Shown here: one piece after another, positions 6,548 to 49,943 of the stretch | How positions within the stretch are numbered: the first letter of the stretch is position 1 | Layout of the letters: each line of letters starts with the position of its first letter | Virus record (IMG/VR): IMGVR_UViG_3300028569_000044 | Location: 1-54,199 of that record | Length of the DNA stretch: 54,199 nucleotides | Source of the DNA: an uncultured virus (IMG/VR IMGVR_UViG_3300028569_000044) | Taxonomy: Duplodnaviria; Heunggongvirae; Uroviricota; Caudoviricetes | Strand: one strand, 5' to 3' | The notes under the pieces: model-generated | What the model saw: the letters and a program-made list of their open reading frames with translations, nothing else | What the model was told of the DNA's origin: nothing | Databases searched by the model: none | Position numbers and translations under genes: made by a program

Positions 6548-7390
6548 TTATAATAATATCCAACCTTTAACAACATTTCGTTTTCGATTGCATAATCCTG
6601 AAATGTTACTTTTTATATTAAATTCAGTTTTTAACTGATATTTTGTACAATATTTATGTAAATTTAAATTTTTATTGTAAAAGTGATAAATTGTAGGATC
6701 GTATGCTGGATTGTTAATACCTTTAGTTCTAATAGATAACTTTCTTGAAAATTCATCGCTCATTTTTCTACCTTTTAATTTTTTAGATATCAATTCTTTT
6801 GTCTCATTATTTCTAGTTTTTCCATATCCCCAATGTTTTTCACCTTTTCTTGAAAAACTCATTTTTGATTTAGCAATATTTGTATGTTTTCTTCCTCTAT
6901 TAGCGTTGCTTATTTTTTCTTTCATTTCTTCTGTTATTTTTAACTTAAAAGCATCGTATCTTTGATTATAATGACTATCAATTTTGTTTTCAAAATCGGA
7001 TTTTATCTTATCTAAATATATTTGTTCAAGTCTCAATAAATCATTTTTATTATCTACACATTCTACGGCGAGAAATTCAAACTCATGTTTTCCATATTTA
7101 TTCCAAGCATTTTGCAAATGATCGTTTTCATGTAAATTATTATTTAATTTATAACGATGTGTTATCCATCTTTTTCTAAAACAAACTGTACTTCCTATAT
7201 AATACTTACCACTTTGTTTATGTATTATTTTATATATCCCCCCTTTTTTTATAATATCTTTCAAGTGATTTTTCTCTACATCGTTTTTTATTTCGGTTGT
7301 AGTAACGCATTTGTCTGTCTTTCCGTGCTTGTAATTTTTCTGATTCGGTAATATACTTTCTCTTTCTTCCCATATAATAGTATCTTTCAT
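6548..7390 (-). CDS. GIY-YIG homing endonuclease with NUMOD3-like repeats
   Basis: GIYKI...YYIGS...RW..H...L....H.N..LQNAWNKYG; HT...K.KMS repeats; true start uncertain. Confidence 0.85.
   Translation of the reverse strand: MKDTIIWEERESILPNQKNYKHGKTDKCVTTTEIKNDVEKNHLKDIIKKGGIYKIIHKQSGKYYIGSTVCFRKRWITHRYKLNNNLHENDHLQNAWNKYGKHEFEFLAVECVDNKNDLLRLEQIYLDKIKSDFENKIDSHYNQRYDAFKLKITEEMKEKISNANRGRKHTNIAKSKMSFSRKGEKHWGYGKTRNNETKELISKKLKGRKMSDEFSRKLSIRTKGINNPAYDPTIYHFYNKNLNLHKYCTKYQLKTEFNIKSNISGLCNRKRNVVKGWILL
7230..7373 (-). CDS. 47 aa basic 'MGRK' leader ORF overlapping the GIY-YIG gene (not in ORF track)
   Basis: Hand translation MGRKRKYITESEKLQARKDRQMRYYNRNKKRCREKSLERYYKKRGDI*, similar to ORFs at 9808 and 13265. 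Confidence 0.65.
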   Translation of the reverse strand: MGRKRKYITESEKLQARKDRQMRYYNRNKKRCREKSLERYYKKRGDI

Positions 7391-9807: not shown

Positions 9808-9963
9808 ATGGGGAGAAAAAAATTAAACAAAACTAAAGATGAATTACTTGAACAACAACGAAATCGTGCAAAAAGATATTATCAACGACACAAGCAAAGA
9901 CTTAACAAAAAATCAATGCAGAAATATTGGGAAAATAAGCGGAATTTACAAAATAGTAAATAA
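9808..9963 (+). CDS. 51 aa basic 'MGRK' leader ORF overlapping the GIY-YIG gene (not in ORF track)
   Basis: MGRKKLNKTKDELLEQQRNRAKRYYQRHKQRLNKKSMQKYWENKRNLQNSK*; ATG follows TATTTAT motif; differences from the 13265 copy are mostly synonymous in this frame. Confidence 0.75.
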   Translation: MGRKKLNKTKDELLEQQRNRAKRYYQRHKQRLNKKSMQKYWENKRNLQNSK

Positions 9964-10633
9964 AATTGATGGGAAATATTACGTTGGTAGTAGTAAACAT
10001 ATCTATAAAAGATGGAACGCACATGTGCGTTTATTGAATAACAATTGTCATCATAATGATTATTTACAAAATGTTTGGAAAAAGTATGGTAGTAATGCAT
10101 TTGGATTTACAATAGTTGAAGTAACAACTTATGATGAAACATTTTTGATTGAACAAAAGTATTTAGATATAGCAAAGTTGGAACAAGATAAATGTTATAA
10201 TTTAAACTTTGAATCTAAAGGTGGATGTGTAAGTAACTATACAAAAGAAAAAATGAGATTAATCAAAATTAATCATTATAAAAATCCAGAAAATAGAAAA
10301 AAGATAAGTTTAAAATTAAAAGGAATCCCTCTTTCTGAGGAAACAAAGAGAAAAATGAGTATATCAAGAACCGGAGAAAAACATTTTCGTTATGGTAAAA
10401 AACTTACACTTGAACATAAAAATAAATTGAGTGAATCTCATAAAGGCACTAAAAATCCGTGGAGTGATAGAAATATTTATATTTGTTATAATGAATTAAC
10501 AAAAATAAAAGTTACAGGCACACGATATGAACTAAGTAAATTAATGAATTTAAAGCAAGATACCACTAATTATTTAATAAGAAAACAAACTAAAAAAACC
10601 CGTTGTGGATGGGTATTAATTGATCATTCATAA
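9839..10633 (+). CDS. GIY-YIG homing endonuclease with NUMOD3-like repeats
   Basis: SGIYKI...YYVGSS...RW..H; LSEETKRKMS and EHKNKLSES repeats. Confidence 0.88.
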   Translation: MNYLNNNEIVQKDIINDTSKDLTKNQCRNIGKISGIYKIVNKIDGKYYVGSSKHIYKRWNAHVRLLNNNCHHNDYLQNVWKKYGSNAFGFTIVEVTTYDETFLIEQKYLDIAKLEQDKCYNLNFESKGGCVSNYTKEKMRLIKINHYKNPENRKKISLKLKGIPLSEETKRKMSISRTGEKHFRYGKKLTLEHKNKLSESHKGTKNPWSDRNIYICYNELTKIKVTGTRYELSKLMNLKQDTTNYLIRKQTKKTRCGWVLIDHS

Positions 10634-13264: not shown

Positions 13265-13426
13265 ATGGGAAGAAAAAAATTAAACAGAACAAAAGATGAA
13301 CTACTTGAACAACAAAGAAACCGAGCAAAAAAATATTATCAACGACATAAACAAAGACTCAATGAAAAGTCAATGCAAAAATATTGGGAAAATAAGCGGA
13401 ATATACAAAATAATAAACAAGATTGA
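13265..13426 (+). CDS. 53 aa basic 'MGRK' leader ORF overlapping the GIY-YIG gene (not in ORF track)
   Basis: MGRKKLNRTKDELLEQQRNRAKKYYQRHKQRLNEKSMQKYWENKRNIQNNKQD*. Confidence 0.75.
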   Translation: MGRKKLNRTKDELLEQQRNRAKKYYQRHKQRLNEKSMQKYWENKRNIQNNKQD

Positions 13427-14180
13427 CGGTAAATATTATGTCGGAAGTAGTAAAGATATTGTCACGCCTAATATAGGCAGATGGTACATGCACAAATACG
13501 AATTAAATAAAAAAACGCATACAAATGATTATCTCCAAAATGCTTGGAATAAATATGGAGAGGATAGTTTTGAATTTATAATTGTAGAAAAATGTAACCC
13601 CGATCAATTACTAATCGTAGAACAAAAGTATTTGGATGATACTAAAAAAGAACGAAATTTATCTTATAATTTAAGTTTTATTGCTGGTAACATTGAGATG
13701 ACGAATGATGTCAGACAAAAAATCAGTGCAAAATCTCGTGCACGATTAAAAGATAAAACAAAACATCCAAATTACGATGCAAAAATATATAAATTATATA
13801 ATAGAATTACAAACGATACATTTTTAGGTACCAGACAAGATTTTATTTTAAAATACAACGATAAGCATTTTAGTATTAACCATTTAATTTCTGGAAAATT
13901 TCATTCAACCAACGGATGGACATTTGATCCGAATTATGATCTTAAAGGTAATAGGGGTAAAAATTGGACGCAAGAAAGAATAAAATCTGTTAGTGAAAAA
14001 TTTACCGGTAAAAATAATCCATCGTATGATATAACCGTACATAATTTTATCCACGAAGACGGAAGAAAAGAAACCTGTACTAAATACGAATTGTATCACA
14101 AATATAATTTAGATAAAAGTGCTCTTGCCAGAGTTATAAACAGAAAACAAAAACATACAATGTGGTGGAAATTAGAATAA
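13296..14180 (+). CDS. GIY-YIG homing endonuclease
   Basis: SGIYKI...YYVGSS...RW..H...LQNAWNKYG; N-terminal half paralogous to 9839..10633. Confidence 0.88.
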   Translation: MNYLNNKETEQKNIINDINKDSMKSQCKNIGKISGIYKIINKIDGKYYVGSSKDIVTPNIGRWYMHKYELNKKTHTNDYLQNAWNKYGEDSFEFIIVEKCNPDQLLIVEQKYLDDTKKERNLSYNLSFIAGNIEMTNDVRQKISAKSRARLKDKTKHPNYDAKIYKLYNRITNDTFLGTRQDFILKYNDKHFSINHLISGKFHSTNGWTFDPNYDLKGNRGKNWTQERIKSVSEKFTGKNNPSYDITVHNFIHEDGRKETCTKYELYHKYNLDKSALARVINRKQKHTMWWKLE

Positions 14181-23048: not shown

Positions 23049-24212
23049 GTGATAACATATAATACCAAACTTTTGAGCGATTGTCAATCTGATTTAGACG
23101 ATTTGAAGTCTATGATGATTGATCATCAAAAGATTTTTAATATTGCATCCCCTCTTCAATTTGTTGAAAAAAAGAATTCTATCGTTGTTTTACATTCAAA
23201 AGTTTACCACAATGTTCGTAAACAATTCCCCTATGTAAACTCTCAAGTCGTTATAAAAGCTGAACAAGAATGTTTAGCCTCCTATAGAAGCGTTAAATCA
23301 AATAAACACAAATTAAAAAAACCAATTGAGAAAAAGAACTTGTCTATTCGCTTGGATAAGAGATTGTATTCGTTTCCTACGGATAGATCAATAAAAATTA
23401 CAACATCAAATGGAAAAAAGAATTTCAAATTTCAATTGTATCCAAAACTTGTAGAATTATTAAATAAATACAAATATGTTGATCCATTGATTTATGTTGA
23501 AAATGGAGAAATATACATTTCGCTACCGTTTGATAATAAATCTAAAGAATCATTAAAACAAAAATTAGCTTTGGGAGTTGATATCGGAATTCGTCGTAGT
23601 GTCGCCCTTAGTGATGGACGAATCATAGTTGATAGAAAATTTAATGGAGACAAACGCAAACTTCGTCACTTAAAAGATACTTTGAAATCTAAAGGCACTA
23701 AAAGTGCTAGAAGACATCTTCACAAACTTCGTCATAAAGAAGCAAACAAAAATAGAAATCAATCTCATTTAATTGCCAATGAGGTTTTAAGAACCGAAGC
23801 AGACACTATTGTTCTAGAAAATCTCAAAGGAATTAAAGTAAAAAAACATAAATATCAAAATAAGCGTTCCATTAGCCAAGTGCCAATGTTTGAACTTCGT
23901 AGAATAATATCTTACAAGGCAGAGAATCAAGGTAAAACCGTGACTCTTGTTAGCCCTTCTTATACTTCTCAAAGAGATTCCGTAACTGGAAGAATTGAAG
24001 GAGAAAGAAGAGGTTGTAGATTTTACTCTAAAAACGATCTTATTTATGATGCGGATGTTAACGCTGCAATCAATATAGCCAAAACATCCAAACTTCCCGT
24101 ATCACAAACTAACCGTTTGACTTATGGGCAGGTTGTCGTCAACCAACCAATCGTATGTAAGCCCTCTGTTGCACAAACAGCGGCATTACAAGCCCCTATG
24201 GCTTTAGCCTAG
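23049..24212 (+). CDS. tnpB: RNA-guided nuclease TnpB
   Basis: RuvC-I LGVDIG, RuvC-II IVLENL, YTSQ, RuvC-III DADVNAAINI. Confidence 0.92.
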   Translation: MITYNTKLLSDCQSDLDDLKSMMIDHQKIFNIASPLQFVEKKNSIVVLHSKVYHNVRKQFPYVNSQVVIKAEQECLASYRSVKSNKHKLKKPIEKKNLSIRLDKRLYSFPTDRSIKITTSNGKKNFKFQLYPKLVELLNKYKYVDPLIYVENGEIYISLPFDNKSKESLKQKLALGVDIGIRRSVALSDGRIIVDRKFNGDKRKLRHLKDTLKSKGTKSARRHLHKLRHKEANKNRNQSHLIANEVLRTEADTIVLENLKGIKVKKHKYQNKRSISQVPMFELRRIISYKAENQGKTVTLVSPSYTSQRDSVTGRIEGERRGCRFYSKNDLIYDADVNAAINIAKTSKLPVSQTNRLTYGQVVVNQPIVCKPSVAQTAALQAPMALA

Positions 24213-31740: not shown

Positions 31741-32814
31741 ATGGATAACAATTTTTTAAATATAGATAATGCTGAAACCGCTTACACACTTGGTCTTTTA
31801 TGGTCAGATGGATATCTTTGTAAACATTCAAATGGAAAATATTATTCTGTTGGAATTAGAATTTGTGAAAAAGATATGAAAAATGTTAAATACATATTAT
31901 GTTCTTCAAATTTCAAAAATTGGAAATTTTACGCATATAAAAATTCCAATGAAAACTACAAAAAATTATTAGAATCACAAATACATAACATAAATCTGTG
32001 TAATTTTCTTTTAAAAATTGGATTTGACAAAAAATCTTATATTAGTCACGAGTGTGTATTGCAACATATTCCTGAAAATTTGCATAGATTTTATTTTAGG
32101 GGATTGATTGATGGAGATGGATGTTTTTATATAAGAAAAAATAACATCGGTCAGTCTTTTTCAATAGCATCATCATATAACCAAGATTGGTCATATTTTC
32201 AAAAATATATTTTTGAAAAATTAAAAATTAATACTAAAATTGTACAATCTAAAAATAAAAAAGGTAGCGGTTCTTGTTTAATTATTAATAATAAAATTGA
32301 TATTGTTAATTTTGGAAATTTTGTATATGAAAATATGGATACTGATAAAATCGGATTTTTAAGAAAATATAATAAGTTTTTATCTATCAAAAAATCATAC
32401 GAAAATGCTCCTAAATGTAGCAGATATAATAATTTTTACAAAGGTATATATTTAAAAAACATTAAAACAAATGAGATTGTTGAAATTGTTAAAATGAAAG
32501 ACTTTTGTATAAAGTATAGATTAAATCCTTCCGGTATAAAAAAAGTTTTGTCATCTGAATATATCCAATGGAAAGGATGGATTTTGCCTACCACGGATAT
32601 AGATCAAATAAAAAAAATAAAATATGAAAATTTTTCAAGTAAACTTTCAAAAACATATGAATTTATATATAAAGGCGAAAAATTAATTATTAATAATTTA
32701 AATCGTTATTGTAGAGAACATAATTTGTCTTATTCAAGTTTTAAACTTTTAATACGAGGCGTTTACAACCAATATAAAAATTATATATTTATTAAAAAAT
32801 ATAACAACATATAA
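31741..32814 (+). CDS. LAGLIDADG homing endonuclease (two-motif, free-standing)
   Basis: AYTLGLLWSDG and YFRGLIDGDG. Confidence 0.85.
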   Translation: MDNNFLNIDNAETAYTLGLLWSDGYLCKHSNGKYYSVGIRICEKDMKNVKYILCSSNFKNWKFYAYKNSNENYKKLLESQIHNINLCNFLLKIGFDKKSYISHECVLQHIPENLHRFYFRGLIDGDGCFYIRKNNIGQSFSIASSYNQDWSYFQKYIFEKLKINTKIVQSKNKKGSGSCLIINNKIDIVNFGNFVYENMDTDKIGFLRKYNKFLSIKKSYENAPKCSRYNNFYKGIYLKNIKTNEIVEIVKMKDFCIKYRLNPSGIKKVLSSEYIQWKGWILPTTDIDQIKKIKYENFSSKLSKTYEFIYKGEKLIINNLNRYCREHNLSYSSFKLLIRGVYNQYKNYIFIKKYNNI

Positions 32815-41587: not shown

Positions 41588-41964
41588 AGTAGTTTTAGAT
41601 GTTTAGTGACTGGATCAATTTTAGAACTATAATCTGGTCCAATGGCTAGACAAGTGAAAGTAGGTTTATCAAATCCAGTGGTTTCTTCAATATATTTGAC
41701 TGATAGACCCAGTATAACAGCTTGATATCCAATGTCAAGTAGTTCTTCTTCACTATTTACAGCCAAACAAACCTTAAAGAAAGTTCCTTTAATCCATTGT
41801 TCTTCACGATGATTGAATGGAATAACATCGTCGGGATATGCTCTGACTAGATTGGTTAAGAAAGCAATACTTGCATGAGCACCTTGAGCAACCATTTGTC
41901 CTTTGCTCAATTGCAAATCCTTACGCATTATTATGGTTTGCTTTATTCTGTCGTTTTCTTTCAT
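41584..41964 (-). other. pth2: Peptidyl-tRNA hydrolase Pth2 family
   Basis: KQ.II.RKDL..SKG...AQ.AHAS...KVCL.V.SEEEL...T.LAIGP....ID..T.HLKLL. Confidence 0.88.
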
Positions 41965-42802
41965 ATATTCCTTTTTGTTTTAAAACTCTAATAATCAAAT
42001 ATTTAGATATTCCGTGTTTTTTGGCCATTTCATTTGTAACTTTTTTAGTAGATTGATAATCAAATATTAATGATGTTATCATATTTTCATCAATGTGTTT
42101 ATAACATGGATTTTTACTTCCGATCATATGATTTTTCATTTTTTCACGACCTTGATCTGTAATGCCAATCTTTTTTCCATTTATATCTAAATTTTTTTTG
42201 TGTGATTCAGACATTTTTGTTCTAACCACTTCCAATCCAGATTTACTATTTTTAGATATTTTTTCTCTAATTTCAGATGCTTTTTTCAGACCATATTTTT
42301 CATTATATGATCGTTGTTTATCTTTTATTATTTGTTTGGCTTTTTCATCACCAAATCTCATTTCATAAGTTTTTCCTTTTAATTCATCAGATAGTCTTTT
42401 TTTATTTTCTTCGTTTTGATTATAATCAATTAAATTTTTACATACATTACTAGAAATTGCAAATTTTCTAATTTTTTCTTTTGTAACATCTGAATGTTTC
42501 CATCCAAGAATACCACGACCACCCTCCGTTAAATTATAACCAAACTTTGAAAAAGTATTATACTTTTTAATACACTCGATTTCTTTTACATTCAATTCTT
42601 CAAATGAAGAAGCTTTATATATAACTTCCCATGAAAAATTTTGTTTTCCATACTTTTTGATTGATCTATGAAAATAATATGTGCTTCCTCTATATGCTGC
42701 ATTCAAATGTGCAGCTTTACGCTTTTTAAGTGTTTGAATTGTTTGACCAACATATTTCATTTGGTTCACCAAATTAGTTACAAGATAAATGATCATATAC
42801 AA
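41921..42802 (-). CDS. GIY-YIG homing endonuclease
   Basis: IIYLVTN..N.MKYVGQT...R...H...F..SIKKYG...GYNLTEGG; HSDVTKEKI. Confidence 0.85.
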   Translation of the reverse strand: MYMIIYLVTNLVNQMKYVGQTIQTLKKRKAAHLNAAYRGSTYYFHRSIKKYGKQNFSWEVIYKASSFEELNVKEIECIKKYNTFSKFGYNLTEGGRGILGWKHSDVTKEKIRKFAISSNVCKNLIDYNQNEENKKRLSDELKGKTYEMRFGDEKAKQIIKDKQRSYNEKYGLKKASEIREKISKNSKSGLEVVRTKMSESHKKNLDINGKKIGITDQGREKMKNHMIGSKNPCYKHIDENMITSLIFDYQSTKKVTNEMAKKHGISKYLIIRVLKQKGIYERKRQNKANHNNA

Positions 42803-43322: not shown

Positions 43323-43755
43323 TTACTTTACCGTTGAATTTTCTAAATTGATTTTATCTGTTTGTAAAAGTGTATAATTATATGCTTGTTCTACGGCGGA
43401 TATTTTGTGTTTTGATTTCAACAACTTGATTGATTTCCAATCAACTTTAGTTTGAATCTGAGTTCCGTTGTGGAAATTGATTGTGATATCTACATCGTGT
43501 GGTTGCATATAATTAATAACTGGTTTGTCTATGAATAGTAAACCCAAATCCTATCAAAGTCAATTCAAAATACCAAAAAGTTTTATCTTTGCGGTAAACA
43601 AGTTTGGTATCAAAATTAATATCTATGACTTTTGTTGGATAATCATTACCCCATGCGTTTCCTGGTTGAGTTCCCCATTTGATTTTGGGAACACTGATAT
43701 CAACATCAAAGATATCAAATAGGTCTTCTTTATTCTTTTTAGAGTATAAGCGCAT
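43323..43755 (-). other. Two hypothetical ORFs (43323-43547; 43513-43755, paralog of 19713-19970)
   Basis: FW.F.LT..GFGF shared with 19713. Confidence 0.5.
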
Positions 43756-43756
43756 A

Positions 43757-44104
43757 TTATTTCCACGTTTTATGTTCTTCAGCAATATATTCACCCCCGT
43801 TAGTTTCTGACCTCCTAATGAGCCATTTAACATCATCTGGAATTTCTACTACTTTAAGTTTGATATATTTTCCTTGACCTGCTTTTTCACCCAAAGTTTC
43901 TACAACTTGTACAAGAGTAGAGTCCGTTCTATCAATATTCCAATCATCAATTATGTTTTCATCATTTTCTTCATTTTTATAGAAAATTTTAAAAGTATCA
44001 TCACCCCGTGTGATTAGATTATAACCTTTGAGTTTAGCATATAGAATATGCGCTTCTGAACTTAGGTAGAAACCGCCATAACTTGAGTTGATAACCACTT
44101 TCAT
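43757..44104 (-). CDS. Conserved hypothetical phage protein
   Basis: VINxxYGGFxLS...R.D..LVQVVE.LG.KA......LKVVEIPD...W......G.EYIAE.H.TW. Confidence 0.7.
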   Translation of the reverse strand: MKVVINSSYGGFYLSSEAHILYAKLKGYNLITRGDDTFKIFYKNEENDENIIDDWNIDRTDSTLVQVVETLGEKAGQGKYIKLKVVEIPDDVKWLIRRSETNGGEYIAEEHKTWK

Positions 44105-44111
44105 TTTTAAG

Positions 44112-44140
44112 AGTATACCAGATAGATTTCTGAAAGTCAA
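44112..44140 (-). promoter_or_regulatory. Sigma70-like promoter
   Basis: TTGACT-17nt-TATACT with extended TG. Confidence 0.7.
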
Positions 44141-44277
44141 ATATTTTTCTTGTCAAATTCATTGTATAATTGATCGTCTAATTGATTGTATAATTGACGG
44201 TTTAATTGACTGTGTAATTGATCGTATAATTGATTCTGTAATTGAATTTTATGTTTTATTGGTTTTGTGAAATTCAT
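44137..44277 (-). CDS. QLxx-repeat micro-ORF 8 (46 aa, not in ORF track)
   Basis: MNFTKPIKHKIQLQNQLYDQLHSQLNRQLYNQLDDQLYNEFDKKNI*. Confidence 0.65.
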   Translation of the reverse strand: MNFTKPIKHKIQLQNQLYDQLHSQLNRQLYNQLDDQLYNEFDKKNI

Positions 44278-44482
44278 TGTGTAATTGACTGTTTAATTGA
44301 TTGAATAATTGACGGTCTAATTGAGTGTATAATTGATCGGATAATTGATTGTATAATTGAGTGTTTGATTGACTGTTTAATTGATTGTTTAATTGAGTCC
44401 ATAATTGTTTGTCTAATTGAGTCTGTAATTGATGTGATAATTGAGTGAATAATTTAGTTTTTATTGGTTTTGTGAAGTTCAT
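44249..44482 (-). CDS. QLxx-repeat micro-ORF 7
   Basis: MNFTKPIK + QLxx repeats. Confidence 0.7.
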   Translation of the reverse strand: MNFTKPIKTKLFTQLSHQLQTQLDKQLWTQLNNQLNSQSNTQLYNQLSDQLYTQLDRQLFNQLNSQLHNEFHKTNKT

Positions 44483-44675
44483 TTTCTAATTGAGTGTTTA
44501 ATTGCCAGCCTAATTGATCGGATAATTGATGGGATAATTGATGGGATAATTGATTGAATAATTTAGTGGATAATTTAGTGCCTAATTGATCCCATAATTG
44601 ACGGTGTAATTGCCAGTCTAATTGAGTGTCTAATTGAGTGTGTAATTTATTTCGTATTGAATTGTTGAATTTCAT
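44454..44675 (-). CDS. QLxx-repeat micro-ORF 6
   Basis: MKFNNSIR + QLxx repeats. Confidence 0.7.
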   Translation of the reverse strand: MKFNNSIRNKLHTQLDTQLDWQLHRQLWDQLGTKLSTKLFNQLSHQLSHQLSDQLGWQLNTQLENELHKTNKN

Positions 44676-44856
44676 TGTATAATTGATGGGATAATTGACG
44701 GGTTGTTTGAGTGTGTAATCGATTGTATAATTGCCAGTCTAATTGAGTGTCTAATTGAGTGTGTAATTTATTTCGTATTGAATTGTTGAATTCATCCCAT
44801 AATTGACGGTTTAATTGATCTCTTAATTTATTTGTTATTGGTTTTGTGAAGTTCAT
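44647..44856 (-). CDS. QLxx-repeat micro-ORF 5 (contains an in-frame copy of the ORF 6 N-terminus)
   Basis: Internal FNNSIRNKLHTQLDTQLDWQL. Confidence 0.7.
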   Translation of the reverse strand: MNFTKPITNKLRDQLNRQLWDEFNNSIRNKLHTQLDTQLDWQLYNRLHTQTTRQLSHQLYNEIQQFNTK

Positions 44857-45007
44857 TGTATAATTGAATATATAATTGATCGGTTAATTGATCGGTTAAT
44901 TGATCGGTTAATTGATCGGCTAATTGATCTTCTAATTGAGGGTGCTCGAATAATGTACGGCATAATTGAGTGTGTAATTTATTTGATAGTGGATTGTTCA
45001 AGTTCAT
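44828..45007 (-). CDS. QLxx-repeat micro-ORF 4 (59 aa, not in ORF track)
   Basis: MNLNNPLSNKLHTQLCRTLFEHPQLEDQLADQLTDQLTDQLTDQLYIQLYNELHKTNNK*. Confidence 0.65.
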   Translation of the reverse strand: MNLNNPLSNKLHTQLCRTLFEHPQLEDQLADQLTDQLTDQLTDQLYIQLYNELHKTNNK

Positions 45008-45188
45008 GGCGTAATTGCCAGTGTAATTGATTGTGTAATTGACTGGATAATTGATTGTATAATTGATCGTATAATTGAGTGTCTAATTGAGTGTATAATT
45101 CATCGTGTAATTGTTCTTCTAATTGACGGAATAATTGAGTGTGTAATTGATTGTATAATTTAGTTTTTAGTGGAGTGTTGAATTTCAT
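44979..45188 (-). CDS. QLxx-repeat micro-ORF 3
   Basis: MKFNTPLK + QLxx repeats. Confidence 0.7.
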   Translation of the reverse strand: MKFNTPLKTKLYNQLHTQLFRQLEEQLHDELYTQLDTQLYDQLYNQLSSQLHNQLHWQLRHELEQSTIK

Positions 45189-45381
45189 GGCGTAATTGAC
45201 TGACTAATTGATCGGATAATTGCCAATATAATTTCTCGATTAATTGATCGTATAATTGATTGTGCAATTTATTGGATAATTGAGTGTGCAATTGCCAGTG
45301 TAATTGTTCTTCTAATTGACGGAATAATTGAGTGTGTAATTGAGTGTGTAATTTATTTAATAGTGGATTGTTGAAGTTCAT
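45160..45381 (-). CDS. QLxx-repeat micro-ORF 2
   Basis: MNFNNPLL + QLxx repeats. Confidence 0.7.
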   Translation of the reverse strand: MNFNNPLLNKLHTQLHTQLFRQLEEQLHWQLHTQLSNKLHNQLYDQLIEKLYWQLSDQLVSQLRHEIQHSTKN

Positions 45382-45568
45382 TGCGTAATTGATTGTTTAA
45401 TTGACTGGATAATTGATCGTATAATTGAGTGATTAATTGATTGCGTAATTGAAGGTTTAATCGATCTTCTAATTGATCTTCTAATTGACGGTTTAATTGA
45501 CTGTGTAATTGATCGTATAATTGATTCTGTAATTGAATTTTATGTTTTATTGGTTTTGTGAAATTCAT
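45353..45568 (-). CDS. QLxx-repeat micro-ORF 1
   Basis: Probable start MNFTKPIK at 45568. Confidence 0.7.
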   Translation of the reverse strand: MNFTKPIKHKIQLQNQLYDQLHSQLNRQLEDQLEDRLNLQLRNQLITQLYDQLSSQLNNQLRNELQQSTIK

Positions 45569-45580
45569 TGTGTAATAAAT

Positions 45581-45643
45581 AAAAGCCTCCAATAATGTGT
45601 GATATTGGAGGCCTCCAATAATGTGTGATATTGGAGGCTTTTT
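45581..45643. terminator. Tandemly duplicated terminator-like hairpin
   Basis: 26-bp unit GCCTCCAATAATGTGTGATATTGGAG twice (45585-45610, 45611-45636), flanked by A and T tracts. Confidence 0.75.
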
Positions 45644-45662
45644 AATTAGGATTAAATATCTA

Positions 45663-46544
45663 TCAGGCGATGTTAATAATCTTCATTTCACGGCCACCAA
45701 ATCGTTCTTTAATTGCCGACTTTAAATCTTGACAGCTTGGGCTTACAGCCTCCATATGCCAAATTCCAGTTGTCTGATTCAACATCTTAACAAATGGTTG
45801 ATAATCCAAACCTGGAAACAACACCTTCAAATCCCACAATTCATACTGACTCTTATGCCACCAACTATGGGTTTTCTTTGAATATTTCTTATAACTATCA
45901 ACCTTAGTGCCAAGATGTGCCATACGCTCAACGCCGTATTTACGGACAAATTCTGCCTTAATATCAGCATTGGTTTCCTTAAGAAAGACATTGATATCAA
46001 GATACTCACTAGGAGTCATAACAAGATATTCATTCACTTTCACGCCGTTCAAATAATACATTCCCCAACCATCGGCATATTCAATCGCTTTATCGCTTTC
46101 GCAATGTAGAAAACCACCGTCATTGACTGACAATTTAATTGGTCGTTCAATGATAATACAATCATTTTCATACGGAAACCACCAATGCAAATGTTCTGCT
46201 TCTTGCATCCACAATGCGAGCAACTCGGAATTTTCCTTTTCATACTTTATACCGATTGTTTCACAAAAAGTGTAAAACGCCTTCCAATATACCCACTGTT
46301 GTCCCCCGAAATAATTATCCAATTTAACTTCGGGATGTTTGGTAATCAGTTCAAACGCACTACGAAAATAGTGAAAATTAGGTTTATTAAAACCAATGTG
46401 TTTATATAACTTGGTAATGACATCTTCCGCCTTTTCGTGATCAATAGGCACAATTGAACGCCCAACATTGAGATTTTTCTGATAAAATTCTTTGAGGAAA
46501 ATCTCTTGTTCCGGAGTCAGTGATGTGATTTTTTCTGAGGACAT
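45663..46544 (-). CDS. DUF6745-like protein lacking the usual internal low-complexity repeat
   Basis: LTPEQE...S..PID...AE.....Y...G...P; GQ....W.AFY.F; WWFPYE...I.ERP......D..G.LH.....AI.YADGW..Y..NGV.V; E.NA.......YG.ER. Confidence 0.72.
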   Translation of the reverse strand: MSSEKITSLTPEQEIFLKEFYQKNLNVGRSIVPIDHEKAEDVITKLYKHIGFNKPNFHYFRSAFELITKHPEVKLDNYFGGQQWVYWKAFYTFCETIGIKYEKENSELLALWMQEAEHLHWWFPYENDCIIIERPIKLSVNDGGFLHCESDKAIEYADGWGMYYLNGVKVNEYLVMTPSEYLDINVFLKETNADIKAEFVRKYGVERMAHLGTKVDSYKKYSKKTHSWWHKSQYELWDLKVLFPGLDYQPFVKMLNQTTGIWHMEAVSPSCQDLKSAIKERFGGREMKIINIA

Positions 46545-46573
46545 ATTATGTATGTTTAATGGTTAAACTAATG

Positions 46574-46918
46574 TTAGTCTCGGACTTTTTGAAGTCTTGC
46601 AGCAAACGGATCATATTCGAATTGACTACCGAATTCATATGTATTACCAGCTGGTAATACAATTTCACTGTGGCGTGAATCTATCACACATCGAATTGCG
46701 GTATCAACACTATTTTGCATATATAGTGTTCCAGTTTCACTTTGGAAAAATTCCACGCCTGGCATAACATCCACAATGTGATGATTACCAGTTGTTTCAC
46801 TCGGAGCAACAATAACATAATTATCGTTGATGTTCATTTTCTTGGCATTTGTTGGCAAATTGCTCAAAAATACCATACACTCACCGTGTAGGATTACTTC
46901 GTTTTCATTAATTTTCAT
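46574..46918 (-). CDS. Small His-containing beta protein typically found next to DUF6745-like genes
   Basis: HGE...A.SETTGNHH...H..I.LP.G.Y....Q.EYDP.......V.D. Confidence 0.65.
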   Translation of the reverse strand: MKINENEVILHGECMVFLSNLPTNAKKMNINDNYVIVAPSETTGNHHIVDVMPGVEFFQSETGTLYMQNSVDTAIRCVIDSRHSEIVLPAGNTYEFGSQFEYDPFAARLQKVRD

Positions 46919-48649: not shown

Positions 48650-49943
48650 TTGGAGGAATTCTCACTATGATCTCAATATATAACCTCCACATTACTTTGT
48701 CAAACATAAAATTATTTTCATTATTTTTCACTTTTTGTATTTAAAATATATACTTATATGAAGTGATAACATATAATACACAACTTTTAATGAAAAATCA
48801 AGAAGACTTTGATAGTTTAAAGTCAATTCTTGAAATGCATAGAGTTGTATTTAACTTTGCTTCACAACTCCAATTCAAAGAAACAAAAAATAGTTTAGTA
48901 GTTTTACATTCTAAAGTATATAATAACATTCGTAAACAATATTCAAATATACCATCTCAAGTTATCATTAAAGCAGAACAAGAATGTTTATCAAGTTATA
49001 AATCTACAAAGTCAAATAAACATAAATTAAAAAAATCAATTGAAAAGAAAAATCTTTCAATGCGGTTGGATAAAAGACTTTATTCAAAAAACAAAAGTGA
49101 TAAATATTCAATTCGTATAACCACCACTTCTGGAAGACAATCTTTTAAATTTGTAGTATATCCAAAACTAAAAGAATTATTGGACAAGTATGAATATACA
49201 GATCCTCTAATTTATGAAAATGATGGTAAATTATTTATATCATTTACATTTGATAATAAACCCAACGAACAATTAAAACAAAAACTAGCATTAGGAGTTG
49301 ATATTGGCATTCGTAGAAATGTCGCTTGTAGTGATGGTAGAATAGTCATTGATAGAAAATTCAACGGGGATAAACGCAAACTTCGTCATCTAAAAGATAA
49401 TCTCAAGTCTAAAGGCACCAAAAGTGCTAGAAGACATCTTGGTAAATTAAGACATAAAGAAGCTAACAAAAATAGAAATCAAACTCATTTAATAGCTAAT
49501 TTAGTATTAAAAACAGAAGCAGATACTATTGTATTAGAAAATTTAAATGGTATAAAGAAAAAGAAACATAAATATCAAAATAAGCGTTCAATTGGACAAG
49601 TGCCAATGTTTGAACTTCGTAGAGTAATATCCTATAAGGCGGAGAACCTTGGTAAATCGGTTCTACTAGTTCGCCCTTATTATACATCACAGATTGATAG
49701 TGTTACTGGCAATCGTGATGGAGAAAGAAGAGGTTGTAGATTTTATTCTAAGAACGGACTTATTTATGATGCGGACATTAATGCAGCAATTAATATTGCT
49801 AAATTGTCCAAACTTCCCGTATCACAGACTAATTACCTGACTTATGGGCAGGCTGTTGTCAATCAGCCAATCGTATGTAAGCCCTCTGTTGCACAAACAG
49901 CGGCATTACAAGCCCCTATGGCTTTAGCCTAGGGGTTGTTGAC
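48650..49943 (+). mobile_element. tnpB-only (IS1341-like) derivative of the same IS200/IS605 family
   Basis: Right-end hairpin identical to 24193-24215; no tnpA; left boundary inferred. Confidence 0.75.
48763..49932 (+). CDS. tnpB: RNA-guided nuclease TnpB (paralog of 23049..24212)
   Basis: LGVDIG, IVLENL, YTSQ, DADINAAINI. Confidence 0.92.
   Translation: MITYNTQLLMKNQEDFDSLKSILEMHRVVFNFASQLQFKETKNSLVVLHSKVYNNIRKQYSNIPSQVIIKAEQECLSSYKSTKSNKHKLKKSIEKKNLSMRLDKRLYSKNKSDKYSIRITTTSGRQSFKFVVYPKLKELLDKYEYTDPLIYENDGKLFISFTFDNKPNEQLKQKLALGVDIGIRRNVACSDGRIVIDRKFNGDKRKLRHLKDNLKSKGTKSARRHLGKLRHKEANKNRNQTHLIANLVLKTEADTIVLENLNGIKKKKHKYQNKRSIGQVPMFELRRVISYKAENLGKSVLLVRPYYTSQIDSVTGNRDGERRGCRFYSKNGLIYDADINAAINIAKLSKLPVSQTNYLTYGQAVVNQPIVCKPSVAQTAALQAPMALA

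What the first reader, a model, noticed from the sequence alone, without database searches (positions are those of the whole stretch)
44137..45568. Chain of eight QLxx-repeat micro-ORFs, each overlapping the next by exactly 29 nt
Seen: starts at 45568, 45381, 45188, 45007, 44856, 44675, 44482 and 44277 (two are missing from the ORF track). All seven overlaps are 29 nt. Each ATG arises inside the (N/H)-E codons of the previous ORF (aAT GAa), and the overlap is dual-coding: M(N/K)(F/L)xx(P/S)(I/L)xxK in one frame and E(L/I/F)xxxxxx* in the other. Between junctions the DNA is CAATTA-N6 with hypervariable N6, yet without in-frame stops. This looks like a self-propagating cassette array producing a library of variable amphipathic peptides by translational coupling, or a polyprotein by serial +1 shifts. 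I recognise no named system with this layout.
Basis: partly seen in the sequence, partly recalled or inferred. Interest (0 to 1): 0.9.

Follow-up and report, generated by a model that had tools for sequence, protein, structure and literature searches.

The report
Detached hypervariable repeat mini-genes beside phage DUF6745
A lake-water phage carries eight small overlapping genes made of variable four-residue repeats, which in related phages sit inside the neighbouring DUF6745 protein, and the nearest studied example of such repeats is a phage counter-defence protein.

Summary
Eight minus-strand ORFs of 46-77 aa (44137-45568) each overlap the next by exactly 29 nt, and each lies in the +1 frame of the one before.

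The layout is not chance and not unique to this window.
- In 25 metagenome contigs from close relatives I found 86 such units. Of 66 junctions, 60 are 29 nt/+1.
- More distant phages have chains with 11-, 14- or 17-nt overlaps, with ATGA overlaps, or with short gaps.
- Across 876 CAATTA-N6 repeats there are 0 in-frame stops against about 30 expected.

The repeat type belongs to the DUF6745 family. Of the top 150 profile hits, 132 are DUF6745 proteins that carry the repeat internally. Internal and detached repeats almost exclude each other.

A complex model docks ORF7 onto the DUF6745 protein around the site where relatives carry the insert (score 0.74, best control 0.02).

The closest described case is mycobacteriophage Tweety gp54. 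It has the same 12-bp variation pattern and acts as a tunable counter-defence, but its flanking domains are unrelated.

I found no evidence of expression, and no contig spans the whole array. My verdict is that the feature is real and is a new variant of a known kind.

The parts
45353..45568 (-). micro-ORF 1 (71 aa, QLxx repeats). Its first 87 nt are identical to those of micro-ORF 8.
45160..45381 (-). micro-ORF 2 (73 aa), +1 frame, 29-nt overlap with ORF1
44979..45188 (-). micro-ORF 3 (69 aa), +1 frame, 29-nt overlap
44828..45007 (-). micro-ORF 4 (59 aa). A natural variant lacking one TDQL repeat exists in the protein library (P0232).
44647..44856 (-). micro-ORF 5 (69 aa). It contains an in-frame fused junction (WDEFNNSIRNK) at 44767-44796.
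   Evidence: Contig pieces of three runs cover the junction with no differences.
44454..44675 (-). micro-ORF 6 (73 aa)
44249..44482 (-). micro-ORF 7 (77 aa), the unit used as partner in the complex model
44137..44277 (-). micro-ORF 8 (46 aa), the last full unit
44034..44162 (-). Degenerate ninth start (MNLTRKIF...) in the +1 frame. It runs into the next gene and is probably a relic of the last junction.
45580..45638 (-). Two tandem copies of a 26-nt hairpin followed by a U-tract (terminator-like). It lies between the DUF6745 stop and ORF1 and ends 14 nt before the ORF1 ATG.
   Evidence: fold z-score -6.1
45663..46544 (-). DUF6745 protein (293 aa) without an internal repeat insert. It is the predicted docking scaffold.
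46574..46918 (-). Conserved 114-aa neighbour of DUF6745. A homologue lies beside DUF6745 in Microcystis phage Ma-LMM01 (gp175), and similar ORFs follow DUF6745 in L123 and L125.
44112..44140 (-). Promoter-like site (TTGACT-17-TATACT, 10 of 12 matches) at the end of the array, in front of the next gene

Best explanation
The array is a tandemly amplified family of eight small genes, and each unit is probably translated from its own ATG.

**Unit structure.** Each unit encodes a 46-77 aa protein with three parts:
- a conserved N-cap, M(N/K)(F/L)x(K/N)(P/S)(I/L)K;
- a run of [Q]-[L]-x1-x2 tetrapeptide repeats;
- a C-cap, NE(F/L/I).

**Origin of the overlap.** The 29-nt overlap and +1 frame follow from the sequence aATGAa, which encodes both the C-cap (N-E) of one unit and the start (M-N/K) of the next. 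The upstream frame then happens to run 7 more codons to a stop. Because the array grew by duplicating this unit, every junction is the same.

**Relation to DUF6745.** The units are the detached form of a variable-length tetrapeptide-repeat insert. In most relatives that insert lies inside the DUF6745 protein, between its N-terminal helical domain and its core. Here the DUF6745 protein has no insert. The micro-proteins, modelled as helical hairpins, are predicted to dock onto it around the insertion site. One conserved scaffold could then carry any of several hypervariable hairpins.

**Source of diversity (inferred).** Diversity comes mainly from gain, loss and shuffling of 12-nt repeats and whole units within a limited vocabulary of hexamers, under selection that keeps the frame open.

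**Function (by analogy only).** The module is likely a fast-evolving recognition or tuning module in phage-host conflict, as for Tweety gp54.

**Shown versus inferred.**
- Shown: the layout, its conservation, the stop depletion, the link to DUF6745, and the cis/trans exclusivity.
- Modelled: the hairpin fold and the docking.
- Inferred: translation, translational coupling and biological role.
For: **Layout.**

**The same chain in close relatives.**
- 20 of 25 metagenome loci carry units. My motif filter found 86 units, one of them evidently spurious.
- Of 66 junctions, 60 are 29 nt/+1, 2 are 14 nt/+1, 2 are 4 nt/-1, 1 is 56 nt/+1 and 1 is a spurious distant pair.
- Unit number and content differ among strains whose DUF6745 protein matches the window's at about 90-92% identity.

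**Chains in distant phages with other repeat codons**:
- L157: 11 ORFs, all 17 nt/+1.
- L129: 5 ORFs, 14 nt.
- L134: 4 ORFs, 17 nt.
- L154: 11/17/17 nt.
- L167: 11 nt.

The repeat is QL, QV or SV in these arrays, and NL, AV or SL in cis forms. So it is the protein pattern [L/V/I]-x1-[N/D/S/T]-[Q/S] that is kept, not the DNA word.

**Stop depletion.** 0 stops against about 30 expected in 876 hexamers.

**Link to DUF6745.**
- A profile of the 8 micro-ORFs hits 913 library representatives at E<=1e-3. Of the best 150, 132 also match my DUF6745 profile at E<=1e-5, with the repeat internal.
- A pattern-first DNA scan returned DUF6745 genes with internal QLxx repeats as its two longest arrays outside the window's own record (L013, L117).

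**Cis/trans exclusivity.** Of 13 loci with an internal repeat, 1 has an external micro-ORF. Of 47 loci without one, 30 do (Fisher p=3.6e-4).

**Complex model.**
- ipSAE is 0.74 (runs 0.75, 0.73, 0.74) against a best control of 0.02.
- Partner pLDDT is at least 81, and the runs agree in at least 97% of contacts.
- In calibration, 58 of 80 solved complexes and 2 of 110 mismatched pairs reached the mark. These counts hold only roughly, because my own alignments were used.
- Contacts include DUF6745 residues 70-80, which flank the insertion point seen in alignment A1.
- No solved structure resembles DUF6745 (0 Foldseek PDB hits at E<=1e-3), so the pass is unlikely to be recalled from a known complex.

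**Cis homologue.** In P0068 the repeat is modelled as a helical hairpin, H74-103 and H109-148.

**Direct coupling in a relative.** In L122 the first micro-ORF starts with a GTG that overlaps the DUF6745 stop (GTGA).
Against: **No evidence of translation or transcription.** The one RNA run laid covers only 43700-43989, and that piece comes from a diverged relative.

**Terminator upstream.** A terminator-like double hairpin ends 14 nt before the ORF1 ATG, and no promoter-like site lies between them. Expression would need read-through.

**Start signals say little.** No Shine-Dalgarno sequence precedes any micro-ORF. The phage's other genes lack one too, so this is uninformative.

**Weak structural confidence.**
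- The hairpin part of the cis model has low confidence (pLDDT 45-75).
- The complex score is the model's own confidence and was run with an 8-row alignment of paralogues.

**Open alternative frames.** The +2 frame of the repeats (SIxx) is also nearly stop-free by composition (16 of 876 12-mers carry a stop). Antisense frames are open in some arrays. Openness alone therefore does not pick the frame.

**Non-independent counts.** The exclusivity test counts loci, and some are near-duplicates (L144/L145, L147/L149, L158/L159, L162/L163).

**Assembly.** No single contig spans the array, and units 1 and 8 share an exact 87-nt prefix. The exact order and number of units in this window could be an assembly choice.

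**Function.** The proposed role rests on analogy with a non-homologous protein.
Confidence: 0.6

Rival explanations
1. The micro-proteins are real and separately translated but do not work through DUF6745. They might self-assemble as coiled-coil-like oligomers or act alone as decoys or binders of host factors. The neighbourhood would then reflect common descent only.
For: - The function of DUF6745 is unknown: no PDB fold match and no named family.
- In several loci the arrays lie 1-4 kb from the DUF6745 gene rather than next to it, for example L144-L152 and L157.
- In the window a terminator-like hairpin separates the DUF6745 gene from the array.
Against: - The complex model passes with a large margin over its controls (0.74 against 0.02).
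- Contacts surround the insertion site of the cis repeat.
- Cis and trans forms almost exclude each other.
- In L122 the first unit overlaps the DUF6745 stop.
Confidence: 0.2
2. The array is one long polyprotein made by serial programmed +1 ribosomal frameshifts at each junction.
For: - All 7 junctions in the window, and 63 of 66 in close relatives, step to the +1 frame.
- Some junctions contain A-runs (CAC AAA ACC) or AAA-TAA, on which a Lys-tRNA could re-pair. That such sites can shift is my recollection, not a result of any call.
- ORF5 shows that two units can be read as one protein.
Against: - Homologous arrays use ATGA overlaps (-1 frame; L128, L135, L146, L152, and 2 junctions in L207) and 4-9 nt gaps in the same frame (L147, L152).
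- The A-run is absent from most window junctions.
- Every unit keeps an ATG.
- The N-cap read from that ATG (KPIK) is the part conserved between the window and L122. It also gives the lowest-error contacts in the complex model.
Confidence: 0.05
3. The array is a DNA-level repeat (12-bp iterons, for example a protein-binding or recombination array) and the ORFs are incidental.
For: - The third-codon positions and the CAATTA core are nearly invariant, which resembles a DNA-level constraint.
- Several frames are open by composition.
- There is no expression evidence.
Against: - Different phages keep the polar-hydrophobic tetrad with quite different DNA words (CAATTA, CAACTG, CAAGTN, AGTGTN).
- The same repeats are in frame inside DUF6745 proteins.
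- The caps with start and stop codons are kept in 86 units.
- Stops are strongly depleted.
Confidence: 0.05
4. The variability is written by a diversity-generating retroelement or another targeted mutator, not by recombination and selection.
For: The variable codons are NNC and NNT, with variation only at first and second positions. That is the stop-free pattern typical of DGR targets (the DGR pattern itself is recalled, not from a call).
Against: - No reverse transcriptase (PF00078) is found in the 54-kb record, although that is only about 15% of the estimated genome.
- The adenines of CAA and TTA are invariant (80 of 80 and 79 of 80), which adenine-directed mutagenesis would not spare.
- Only 120 distinct hexamers occur among 876.
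- Strain differences are mostly whole-tetrad or whole-unit gains and losses.
Confidence: 0.03

Closest known systems
Mycobacteriophage Tweety gp54 and its relatives Che8 gp57 and PMC gp51 (tetrapeptide-repeat protein; tunable counter-defence against Phrann gp29/gp30)
   Same: - The minimal unit is 12 bp. Positions 1-6, 9 and 12 are invariant and positions 7, 8, 10 and 11 vary, so variation sits at first and second codon positions (PMC2884959, section 16, passages read; compare).
- Repeat number differs among related phages (48, 26 and 15 there; here).
- In cis DUF6745 forms, as in gp54, the repeat lies between unique N- and C-terminal parts.
- In the window the gene sits among non-structural genes.
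   Different: - The flanking domains are not homologous: no Pfam DUF6745 hit, and hhalign probability 0.1.
- The gp54 repeat is AAxx, not [Q/S][L/V]xx.
- In the window the repeat is not inside one protein but split into eight overlapping mini-genes.
- The counter-defence role is experimental for gp54 (PMC9262239, section 13, passages read; the primary paper, Dedrick 2017, was not held). Here it is untested.
DUF6745 proteins with an internal tetrapeptide-repeat insert (cis form of the same family)
   Same: They share the protein family (Pfam PF20530), the repeat type, which includes QLxx (P0068, L013, L117), and the position of the repeat relative to the scaffold as modelled.
   Different: In the window, and in L122, L133, L134, L154, L157, L167 and others, the DUF6745 protein has no insert. 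The repeats are instead encoded as separate capped units in several copies.
Overlapping stop/start gene pairs with translational coupling (ATGA-type overlaps in phage and bacterial operons)
   Same: Each start codon lies upstream of the preceding stop. Some homologous arrays use the classical ATGA or GTGA overlap.
   Different: The 29-nt overlaps (11-17 nt in other arrays), repeated serially, are unusually long. That a terminating ribosome can reach a start about 30 nt upstream is my recollection of older work on reinitiation in bacteria, not a result here.
Period-4 helical repeats of variable copy number: the TAEL repeats in the central coiled coil of type I HsdS subunits, and the GxxxG repeats of FliH/YscL (both recalled from the literature)
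   Same: - The window's ORF7 and the repeat of P0068 give weak matches to a type I specificity-subunit model over its central region (E 0.0021 and 0.0087).
- Tweety gp54 repeats match FliH models (E 1e-12, below the curated cut-off).
- All are 4-residue periodic and helical, and copy number changes the length.
   Different: These are weak, composition-driven matches. There are no target-recognition domains and no flagellar context, so no membership is claimed.
Diversity-generating retroelement targets
   Same: Hypervariable codons are restricted to first and second positions, which avoids stops.
   Different: No RT is found in the record, the invariant adenines argue against adenine mutagenesis, the variability lies in a repeat array rather than a C-terminal variable region, and the hexamer vocabulary is limited.

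Membership tests
Pfam DUF6745 (PF20530), for the upstream gene 45663-46544 | Match to the family model above Pfam's gathering score | tested here: met
   44.9 bits against a cut-off of 27, E 1.1e-11. 185 homologues at E<=1e-3; of the 120 listed, nearly all carry PF20530.
Tweety gp54-type tetrapeptide-repeat proteins | 12-bp unit with invariant positions 1-6, 9 and 12 and variable positions 7, 8, 10 and 11 | tested here: met
   Window: CAA 80 of 80, TTA 79 of 80, position 9 C in 66 of 80, position 12 T in 71 of 80, and all four bases at positions 7, 8, 10 and 11. The pattern holds in 876 repeats from the window plus 22 related loci. The Tweety pattern is from PMC2884959, section 16.
Tweety gp54-type tetrapeptide-repeat proteins | Repeats embedded between unique N- and C-terminal regions of one polypeptide | tested here: not met
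   In the window the repeats are in eight separate ORFs with their own starts and stops. The feature is met by cis relatives such as P0068, P0089 and P0122.
Tweety gp54-type tetrapeptide-repeat proteins | Homology of the non-repeat regions to gp54 | tested here: not met
   hhalign of the DUF6745 alignment against gp54 gives probability 0.1, and gp54 has no Pfam hit.
Tweety gp54-type tetrapeptide-repeat proteins | Repeat-number differences among related phages | tested here: met
   Unit lengths and numbers differ among loci whose DUF6745 protein matches the window's at about 90-92% identity. P0232 equals ORF4 minus one TDQL repeat.
Tweety gp54-type tetrapeptide-repeat proteins | Counter-defence activity tuned by repeat number | not testable with these tools
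   The host is unknown and there is no culture. Only the analogy is available.
Programmed +1 ribosomal frameshift genes | A conserved shift site at every junction, and no independent start | tested here: not met
   A-runs occur in only some junctions, every unit keeps an ATG, and homologous arrays use -1 overlaps and in-frame gaps.
Diversity-generating retroelement | Reverse transcriptase and template repeat nearby | tested here: inconclusive
   PF00078 is absent from the 54-kb record, but the record is estimated to be about 15% of the genome. I did not search for a template repeat.
Diversity-generating retroelement | Variation confined to template adenines | tested here: not met
   The adenines of CAA and TTA are invariant.
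Pentapeptide repeat proteins (PF00805) | Match to the Pfam model; 5-residue period | tested here: not met
   No Pfam family at E<=0.01 for micro-ORFs 1 and 7. The period is 4 residues (12 nt).
Translationally coupled overlapping genes | Start codon at or upstream of the preceding stop | tested here: met
   7 of 7 junctions in the window.
Translationally coupled overlapping genes | Downstream translation depends on upstream translation | not testable with these tools
   This needs reporter or ribosome-profiling experiments.

The most novel reading that the evidence does not exclude
The locus is a phage-encoded combinatorial recognition system. One conserved DUF6745 scaffold or effector can be loaded, in trans, with any member of a genomic library of hypervariable helical-hairpin micro-proteins. 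The array acts as a rapidly reshuffled repertoire that lets the phage population track variable host targets such as defence proteins. Splitting the repeat off from the scaffold is what allows many variants to be made at once. The cyanobacterial fusion of DUF6745 to leucine-rich repeats would be the cellular counterpart: the same scaffold with a different variable binder.
Probability: 0.2. Interest if true: 0.85.

Novelty: new variant of a known kind. Interest (0 to 1): 0.72.

Why it matters
- DUF6745 is a widespread family of unknown function, found mostly in phages. There were 185 homologues in one search, and no paper mentions its name.
- This locus gives DUF6745 a testable partner. It also shows that its hypervariable repeat module exists in two interchangeable forms, inside the protein or as a bank of separate mini-genes.
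- The only tetrapeptide-repeat phage protein with a known role is a tunable counter-defence (Tweety gp54). If the analogy holds, these arrays mark a common fast-evolving arms-race locus in freshwater phages.
- They would also be a natural example of a protein-recognition repertoire built by cassette shuffling.
- For annotation, chains of 50-80 aa ORFs with 11-29 nt overlaps are easily missed or merged by gene callers, and they break short-read assemblies. Eleven of the 20 unit-bearing contigs end inside the array.

Tried and rejected
**Searches that found nothing useful**
- A megablast of 43700-46600 against the phage collection found nothing.
- A near-length word search for ORF7 found no homologue. 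The exhaustive profile search later found 913.
- Pfam, PHROGs, NCBIfam and PADLOC give no function for the micro-ORFs, the DUF6745 protein, the 114-aa neighbour or the downstream gene. Only families of unknown function and weak repeat-driven hits appeared.
- The genome-contig scan found only one bacterial locus, so it gave no host.
- There are no tRNA genes in the window.
- The notes of this scan held nothing on this locus.

**Structure searches**
- Foldseek of the DUF6745 model (pLDDT 92.8) against the PDB gave 0 hits at E<=1e-3. The small matches to Cren7, EF-P and eIF5A barrels (probability <=0.28) are too weak to use.
- BFVD returned only DUF6745 relatives.

**Sequencing runs**
- The RNA run X24 gave one contig, on 43700-43989 only, with 15 differences. 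It says nothing about the array.
- Parts of the array without cover in runs X3 and X4 are not evidence of absence.

**Literature**
- Searches for 'DUF6745' (0 papers) and for tetrapeptide or four-residue repeats with phage found no description of DUF6745 repeats or of overlapping repeat mini-gene chains. Subscription journals and supplements were not searchable.
- Dedrick et al. 2017 is not held. I cite it only through the review.

**Technical**
I used my own profile in a script instead.

**Considered and dropped**
- A centromere- or iteron-like DNA array.
- A beta-solenoid fold for the repeats. The models give helices, but with modest confidence.
Full report
**1. The observation**

Reading the minus strand of 43900-45800 and translating from the eight named ATGs confirms the finding.
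- There are eight ORFs of 71, 73, 69, 59, 69, 73, 77 and 46 aa.
- All seven overlaps are exactly 29 nt. All seven unit lengths are 1 mod 3, so each ORF is in the +1 frame of the one before.
- Each internal ATG lies in aAT GAa or cAT GAa.
- Tandem Repeats Finder reports one 12-nt array over 44156-45536, with 114.5 copies and 67% matches.
- Units 1 and 8 share an exact 87-nt prefix.
- ORF5 holds a junction that is one base shorter and is therefore read through in frame (WDEFNNSIRNK). A degenerate ninth start follows ORF8.

The window is an IMG/VR virus record of 54 kb, estimated at about 15% of a genome. It has about 31% G+C, and lake-water metagenomes hold it.

**2. Coding or DNA repeat?**

Within 80 in-frame QLxx tetrads, Q is CAA in 80 of 80 and L is TTA in 79 of 80. 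The third base of x1 is C in 66 of 80 and the third base of x2 is T in 71 of 80. The first two bases of x1 and x2 use all four letters. So the variation sits almost entirely at amino-acid-changing positions.

Over the window plus 22 related loci, 876 repeats contain no in-frame stop. About 30 are expected from position-wise composition, and about 163 if third positions had genome composition. Only 120 distinct hexamers occur.

Openness alone is not decisive. The +2 frame is nearly open by composition (16 of 876), and antisense frames are open in some arrays.

What decides it is comparison.
- Six other arrays built from different DNA words keep the same protein tetrad: [L/V/I], then hypervariable x1 (W, R, Y, H, S, E, G), then x2 (mostly N, D, S, T), then [Q/S].
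- The same repeats occur in frame inside larger proteins (see section 4).

**3. The chain is conserved**

Searching viral contigs with the neighbouring DUF6745 protein and then with an alignment of the family gave 60 loci, and many carry 12-nt periodic arrays. Chains of capped micro-ORFs recur.

| Locus | Micro-ORFs | Overlaps |
|---|---|---|
| L157 | 11 | all 17 nt, all +1 |
| L129 (=L122) | 5; two shorter units seen by reading the DNA | 14 nt, +1 |
| L134 | 4 | 17 nt, +1 |
| L154 | 4 | 11/17/17 nt, +1 |
| L167 | 4 | 11 nt, +1 |
| L144, L172 | - | 11 nt, +1 |

Other arrays use ATGA overlaps (L128, L135, L146, L152) or gaps of 4-9 nt (L147, L152).

The metagenome scan gave 45 loci, and I examined the 25 closest (L189-L213). 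Their DUF6745 proteins match the window's at 61-92% identity, and all unit-bearing loci are at 79-92%.
- 20 of the 25 carry units: 86 by my motif filter, one of them evidently spurious.
- Of 66 junctions, 60 are 29 nt/+1, 2 are 14 nt/+1, 2 are 4 nt/-1, 1 is 56 nt/+1 and 1 is a spurious distant pair.
- Contigs that reach the downstream gene show 6, 7, 7 and 9 units (L195, L198, L210, L207), against 8 in the window.
- Eleven of the 20 unit-bearing contigs end inside the array.
- Strains differ by whole tetrads and whole units. A library protein equals ORF4 minus one TDQL repeat.

**4. The repeats belong to DUF6745**

The upstream gene is a DUF6745 protein (44.9 bits against a cut-off of 27).
- Many longer homologues carry a tetrapeptide-repeat insert between the N-terminal ~70 residues and the core. 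The repeat is QLxx in P0068, QVxx in P0089 and P0111, NLxx in P0042, AVxx in P0087, and SLxx in a siphovirus record.
- The DNA pattern scan, made without any protein query, returned DUF6745 genes with internal QLxx as its two longest arrays outside the window's own record (L013, L117).
- A profile of the eight micro-ORFs, run against 1.84 billion representatives, found 913 hits at E<=1e-3. Of the 150 listed, 132 match my DUF6745 profile at E<=1e-5. Several of the other 18 have the family's N-terminal domain, and two are micro-ORFs.
- Among the 60 viral loci, the 13 with an internal repeat run of 8 or more tetrads include 1 with an external micro-ORF. The 47 without include 30 with one (Fisher p=3.6e-4). 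With a threshold of two external ORFs the counts are 0 of 13 against 26 of 47 (p=2.5e-4). Some loci are near-duplicates and flanks are limited to 4 kb, so these p-values are indicative only.

**5. Structure and docking**

- The window's DUF6745 protein gives a confident model (pLDDT 92.8, pTM 0.79). It has no solved structural relative.
- In the cis homologue P0068 the repeat is modelled as a helical hairpin (H74-103, H109-148) at low to moderate confidence.
- The complex job (DUF6745 alignment plus micro-ORF alignment, with ORF7 as partner) gave ipSAE 0.74 (runs 0.75, 0.73, 0.74) against a best control of 0.02. Partner pLDDT was at least 81 and contact agreement at least 97%.
- In calibration 58 of 80 solved complexes and 2 of 110 mismatched pairs reached the mark. 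These counts hold only roughly, because my own alignments were used.
- The micro-protein touches through residues 1-31 and 42-75, which is hairpin-like. The scaffold touches through 6-29, 46-58, 63-112 and 123-130. This includes residues 70-80, which flank the insertion point of the cis repeat.
- The lowest-error pairs join the N-cap (residues 6-8, P-I-K) to scaffold residues 124-126.

This supports binding but does not show it.

**6. How the overlap works**

The sequence aATGAa encodes both the C-cap (N/H-E) and the next start (M-N/K).
- In L154 the upstream frame stops right after EF, giving an 11-nt overlap. In the window it runs on to a stop 29 nt after the A of the ATG.
- The differing overlap lengths (11, 14, 17, 29 nt) are all 2 mod 3, hence the +1 frame.
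- Homologous arrays also work with -1 overlaps or gaps, every unit keeps its ATG, and the ATG-frame N-cap is the conserved and contacting part. I therefore read the units as separately initiated proteins, probably coupled to the upstream ORF.
- In L122 the first unit's GTG overlaps the DUF6745 stop as GTGA.
- The phage's genes in general lack Shine-Dalgarno sequences.
- Serial frameshifting is not excluded by experiment, but I give it about 5%.

**7. Source of the variability**

The pattern is not that of a DGR. No reverse transcriptase is found in the record and the adenines of CAA and TTA are invariant.

The limited hexamer vocabulary and the strain differences by whole tetrads and units point to slippage, unequal exchange and conversion among repeats, filtered by selection. 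This is inference.

**8. Comparison with what is known**

- The 2007 description of mycobacteriophage Tweety gp54 reports the same 12-bp logic: positions 1-6, 9 and 12 invariant, and positions 7, 8, 10 and 11 variable. Related phages have 48, 26 and 15 repeats. The authors suggested such repeats may be widespread (PMC2884959, section 16, passages read).
- A 2022 review states that Tweety mutants escaping the Phrann gp29/gp30 defence map to gene 54 and differ in repeat number, a 'tunable' counter-defence (PMC9262239, section 13, passages read). The primary paper was not held.
- gp54 is not a DUF6745 protein, so this is analogy, not homology.
- Weak model matches link the repeats to the central helical region of type I specificity subunits, and gp54's repeats to FliH. 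I treat these as signs of period-4 helical repeats, not as membership.
- The Atlas lists cyanobacterial clusters in which DUF6745 is fused to leucine-rich repeats. That fits the idea of a constant domain joined to a variable binder.
- No paper containing 'DUF6745' was found. My three other searches found no description of the split, overlapping mini-gene form.

**9. Caveats**

- Nothing shows expression. The RNA run covers only a neighbouring stretch, from a relative.
- A terminator-like double hairpin ends 14 nt before ORF1. Relatives have a gap shorter by about one hairpin copy (66 nt against 94 nt).
- Short-read contigs of three runs cover the array piecewise with no differences, including junctions and the fused junction in ORF5. 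None spans the array.
- The host is unknown, and the biological role is inferred by analogy.

**10. Verdict**

The finding is real and striking, and it is explained in outline.
- It is a bank of detached, hypervariable tetrapeptide-repeat mini-genes belonging to the DUF6745 system.
- It is conserved across many freshwater phages.
- It is a new variant of the Tweety gp54 kind, not a categorically new system.
- I score interest at 0.72.

Noticed in passing
window 46574-46918 (-): A 114-aa gene with a (S/G)ET(T/V)TG(N/H)HH-like motif lies next to DUF6745. A homologue (gp175, BLASTP E 1e-5) precedes the DUF6745 gene gp174 in Microcystis phage Ma-LMM01, among replication genes. Similar ORFs follow DUF6745 in L123 and L125. 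It may be a third conserved partner of the system.
   Followed up: partly
window 45585-45638: The 26-nt hairpin between DUF6745 and the array is present in two exact tandem copies here. Close relatives have a gap shorter by about one copy (66 nt against 94 nt).
   Followed up: partly
window 23049-24212 (+) and 48763-49932 (+): Two TnpB-like genes (Cas12f1-like TNB domain plus OrfB_IS605) lie in one 54-kb phage fragment.
   Followed up: no
window 6548-7390 (-), 13296-14180 (+), 41921-42802 (-), 31741-32814 (+): There are three GIY-YIG genes (one with NUMOD3) and one LAGLIDADG homing-endonuclease-like gene. The stretches just upstream of the ATGs of 9839-10633 and 13296-14180 are nearly identical (agaaaaaaattaaaca...).
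   Followed up: no
Atlas clusters: In Cyanobacteriota, DUF6745 occurs fused to leucine-rich repeats (clusters of 72 and 103 members, 576-682 aa). This is a cellular architecture in which the same domain is joined to a different variable repeat.
   Followed up: no
L192 1600-1974: In one close relative the first micro-ORF reads on in frame into an unrelated C-terminal sequence (124 aa), as if the rest of the array had been deleted.
   Followed up: no
L133 5139-6078 and window 44274-44402: Alternative frames of the repeat arrays give their own long periodic ORFs (MTKSGTKSG..., SIxx; antisense LVPDL...). These are easily mis-called as genes.
   Followed up: partly
L122 2660-2840: The array in this relative is followed by tRNA-like sequence, judged by eye only. 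The window itself has no tRNA genes.
   Followed up: no
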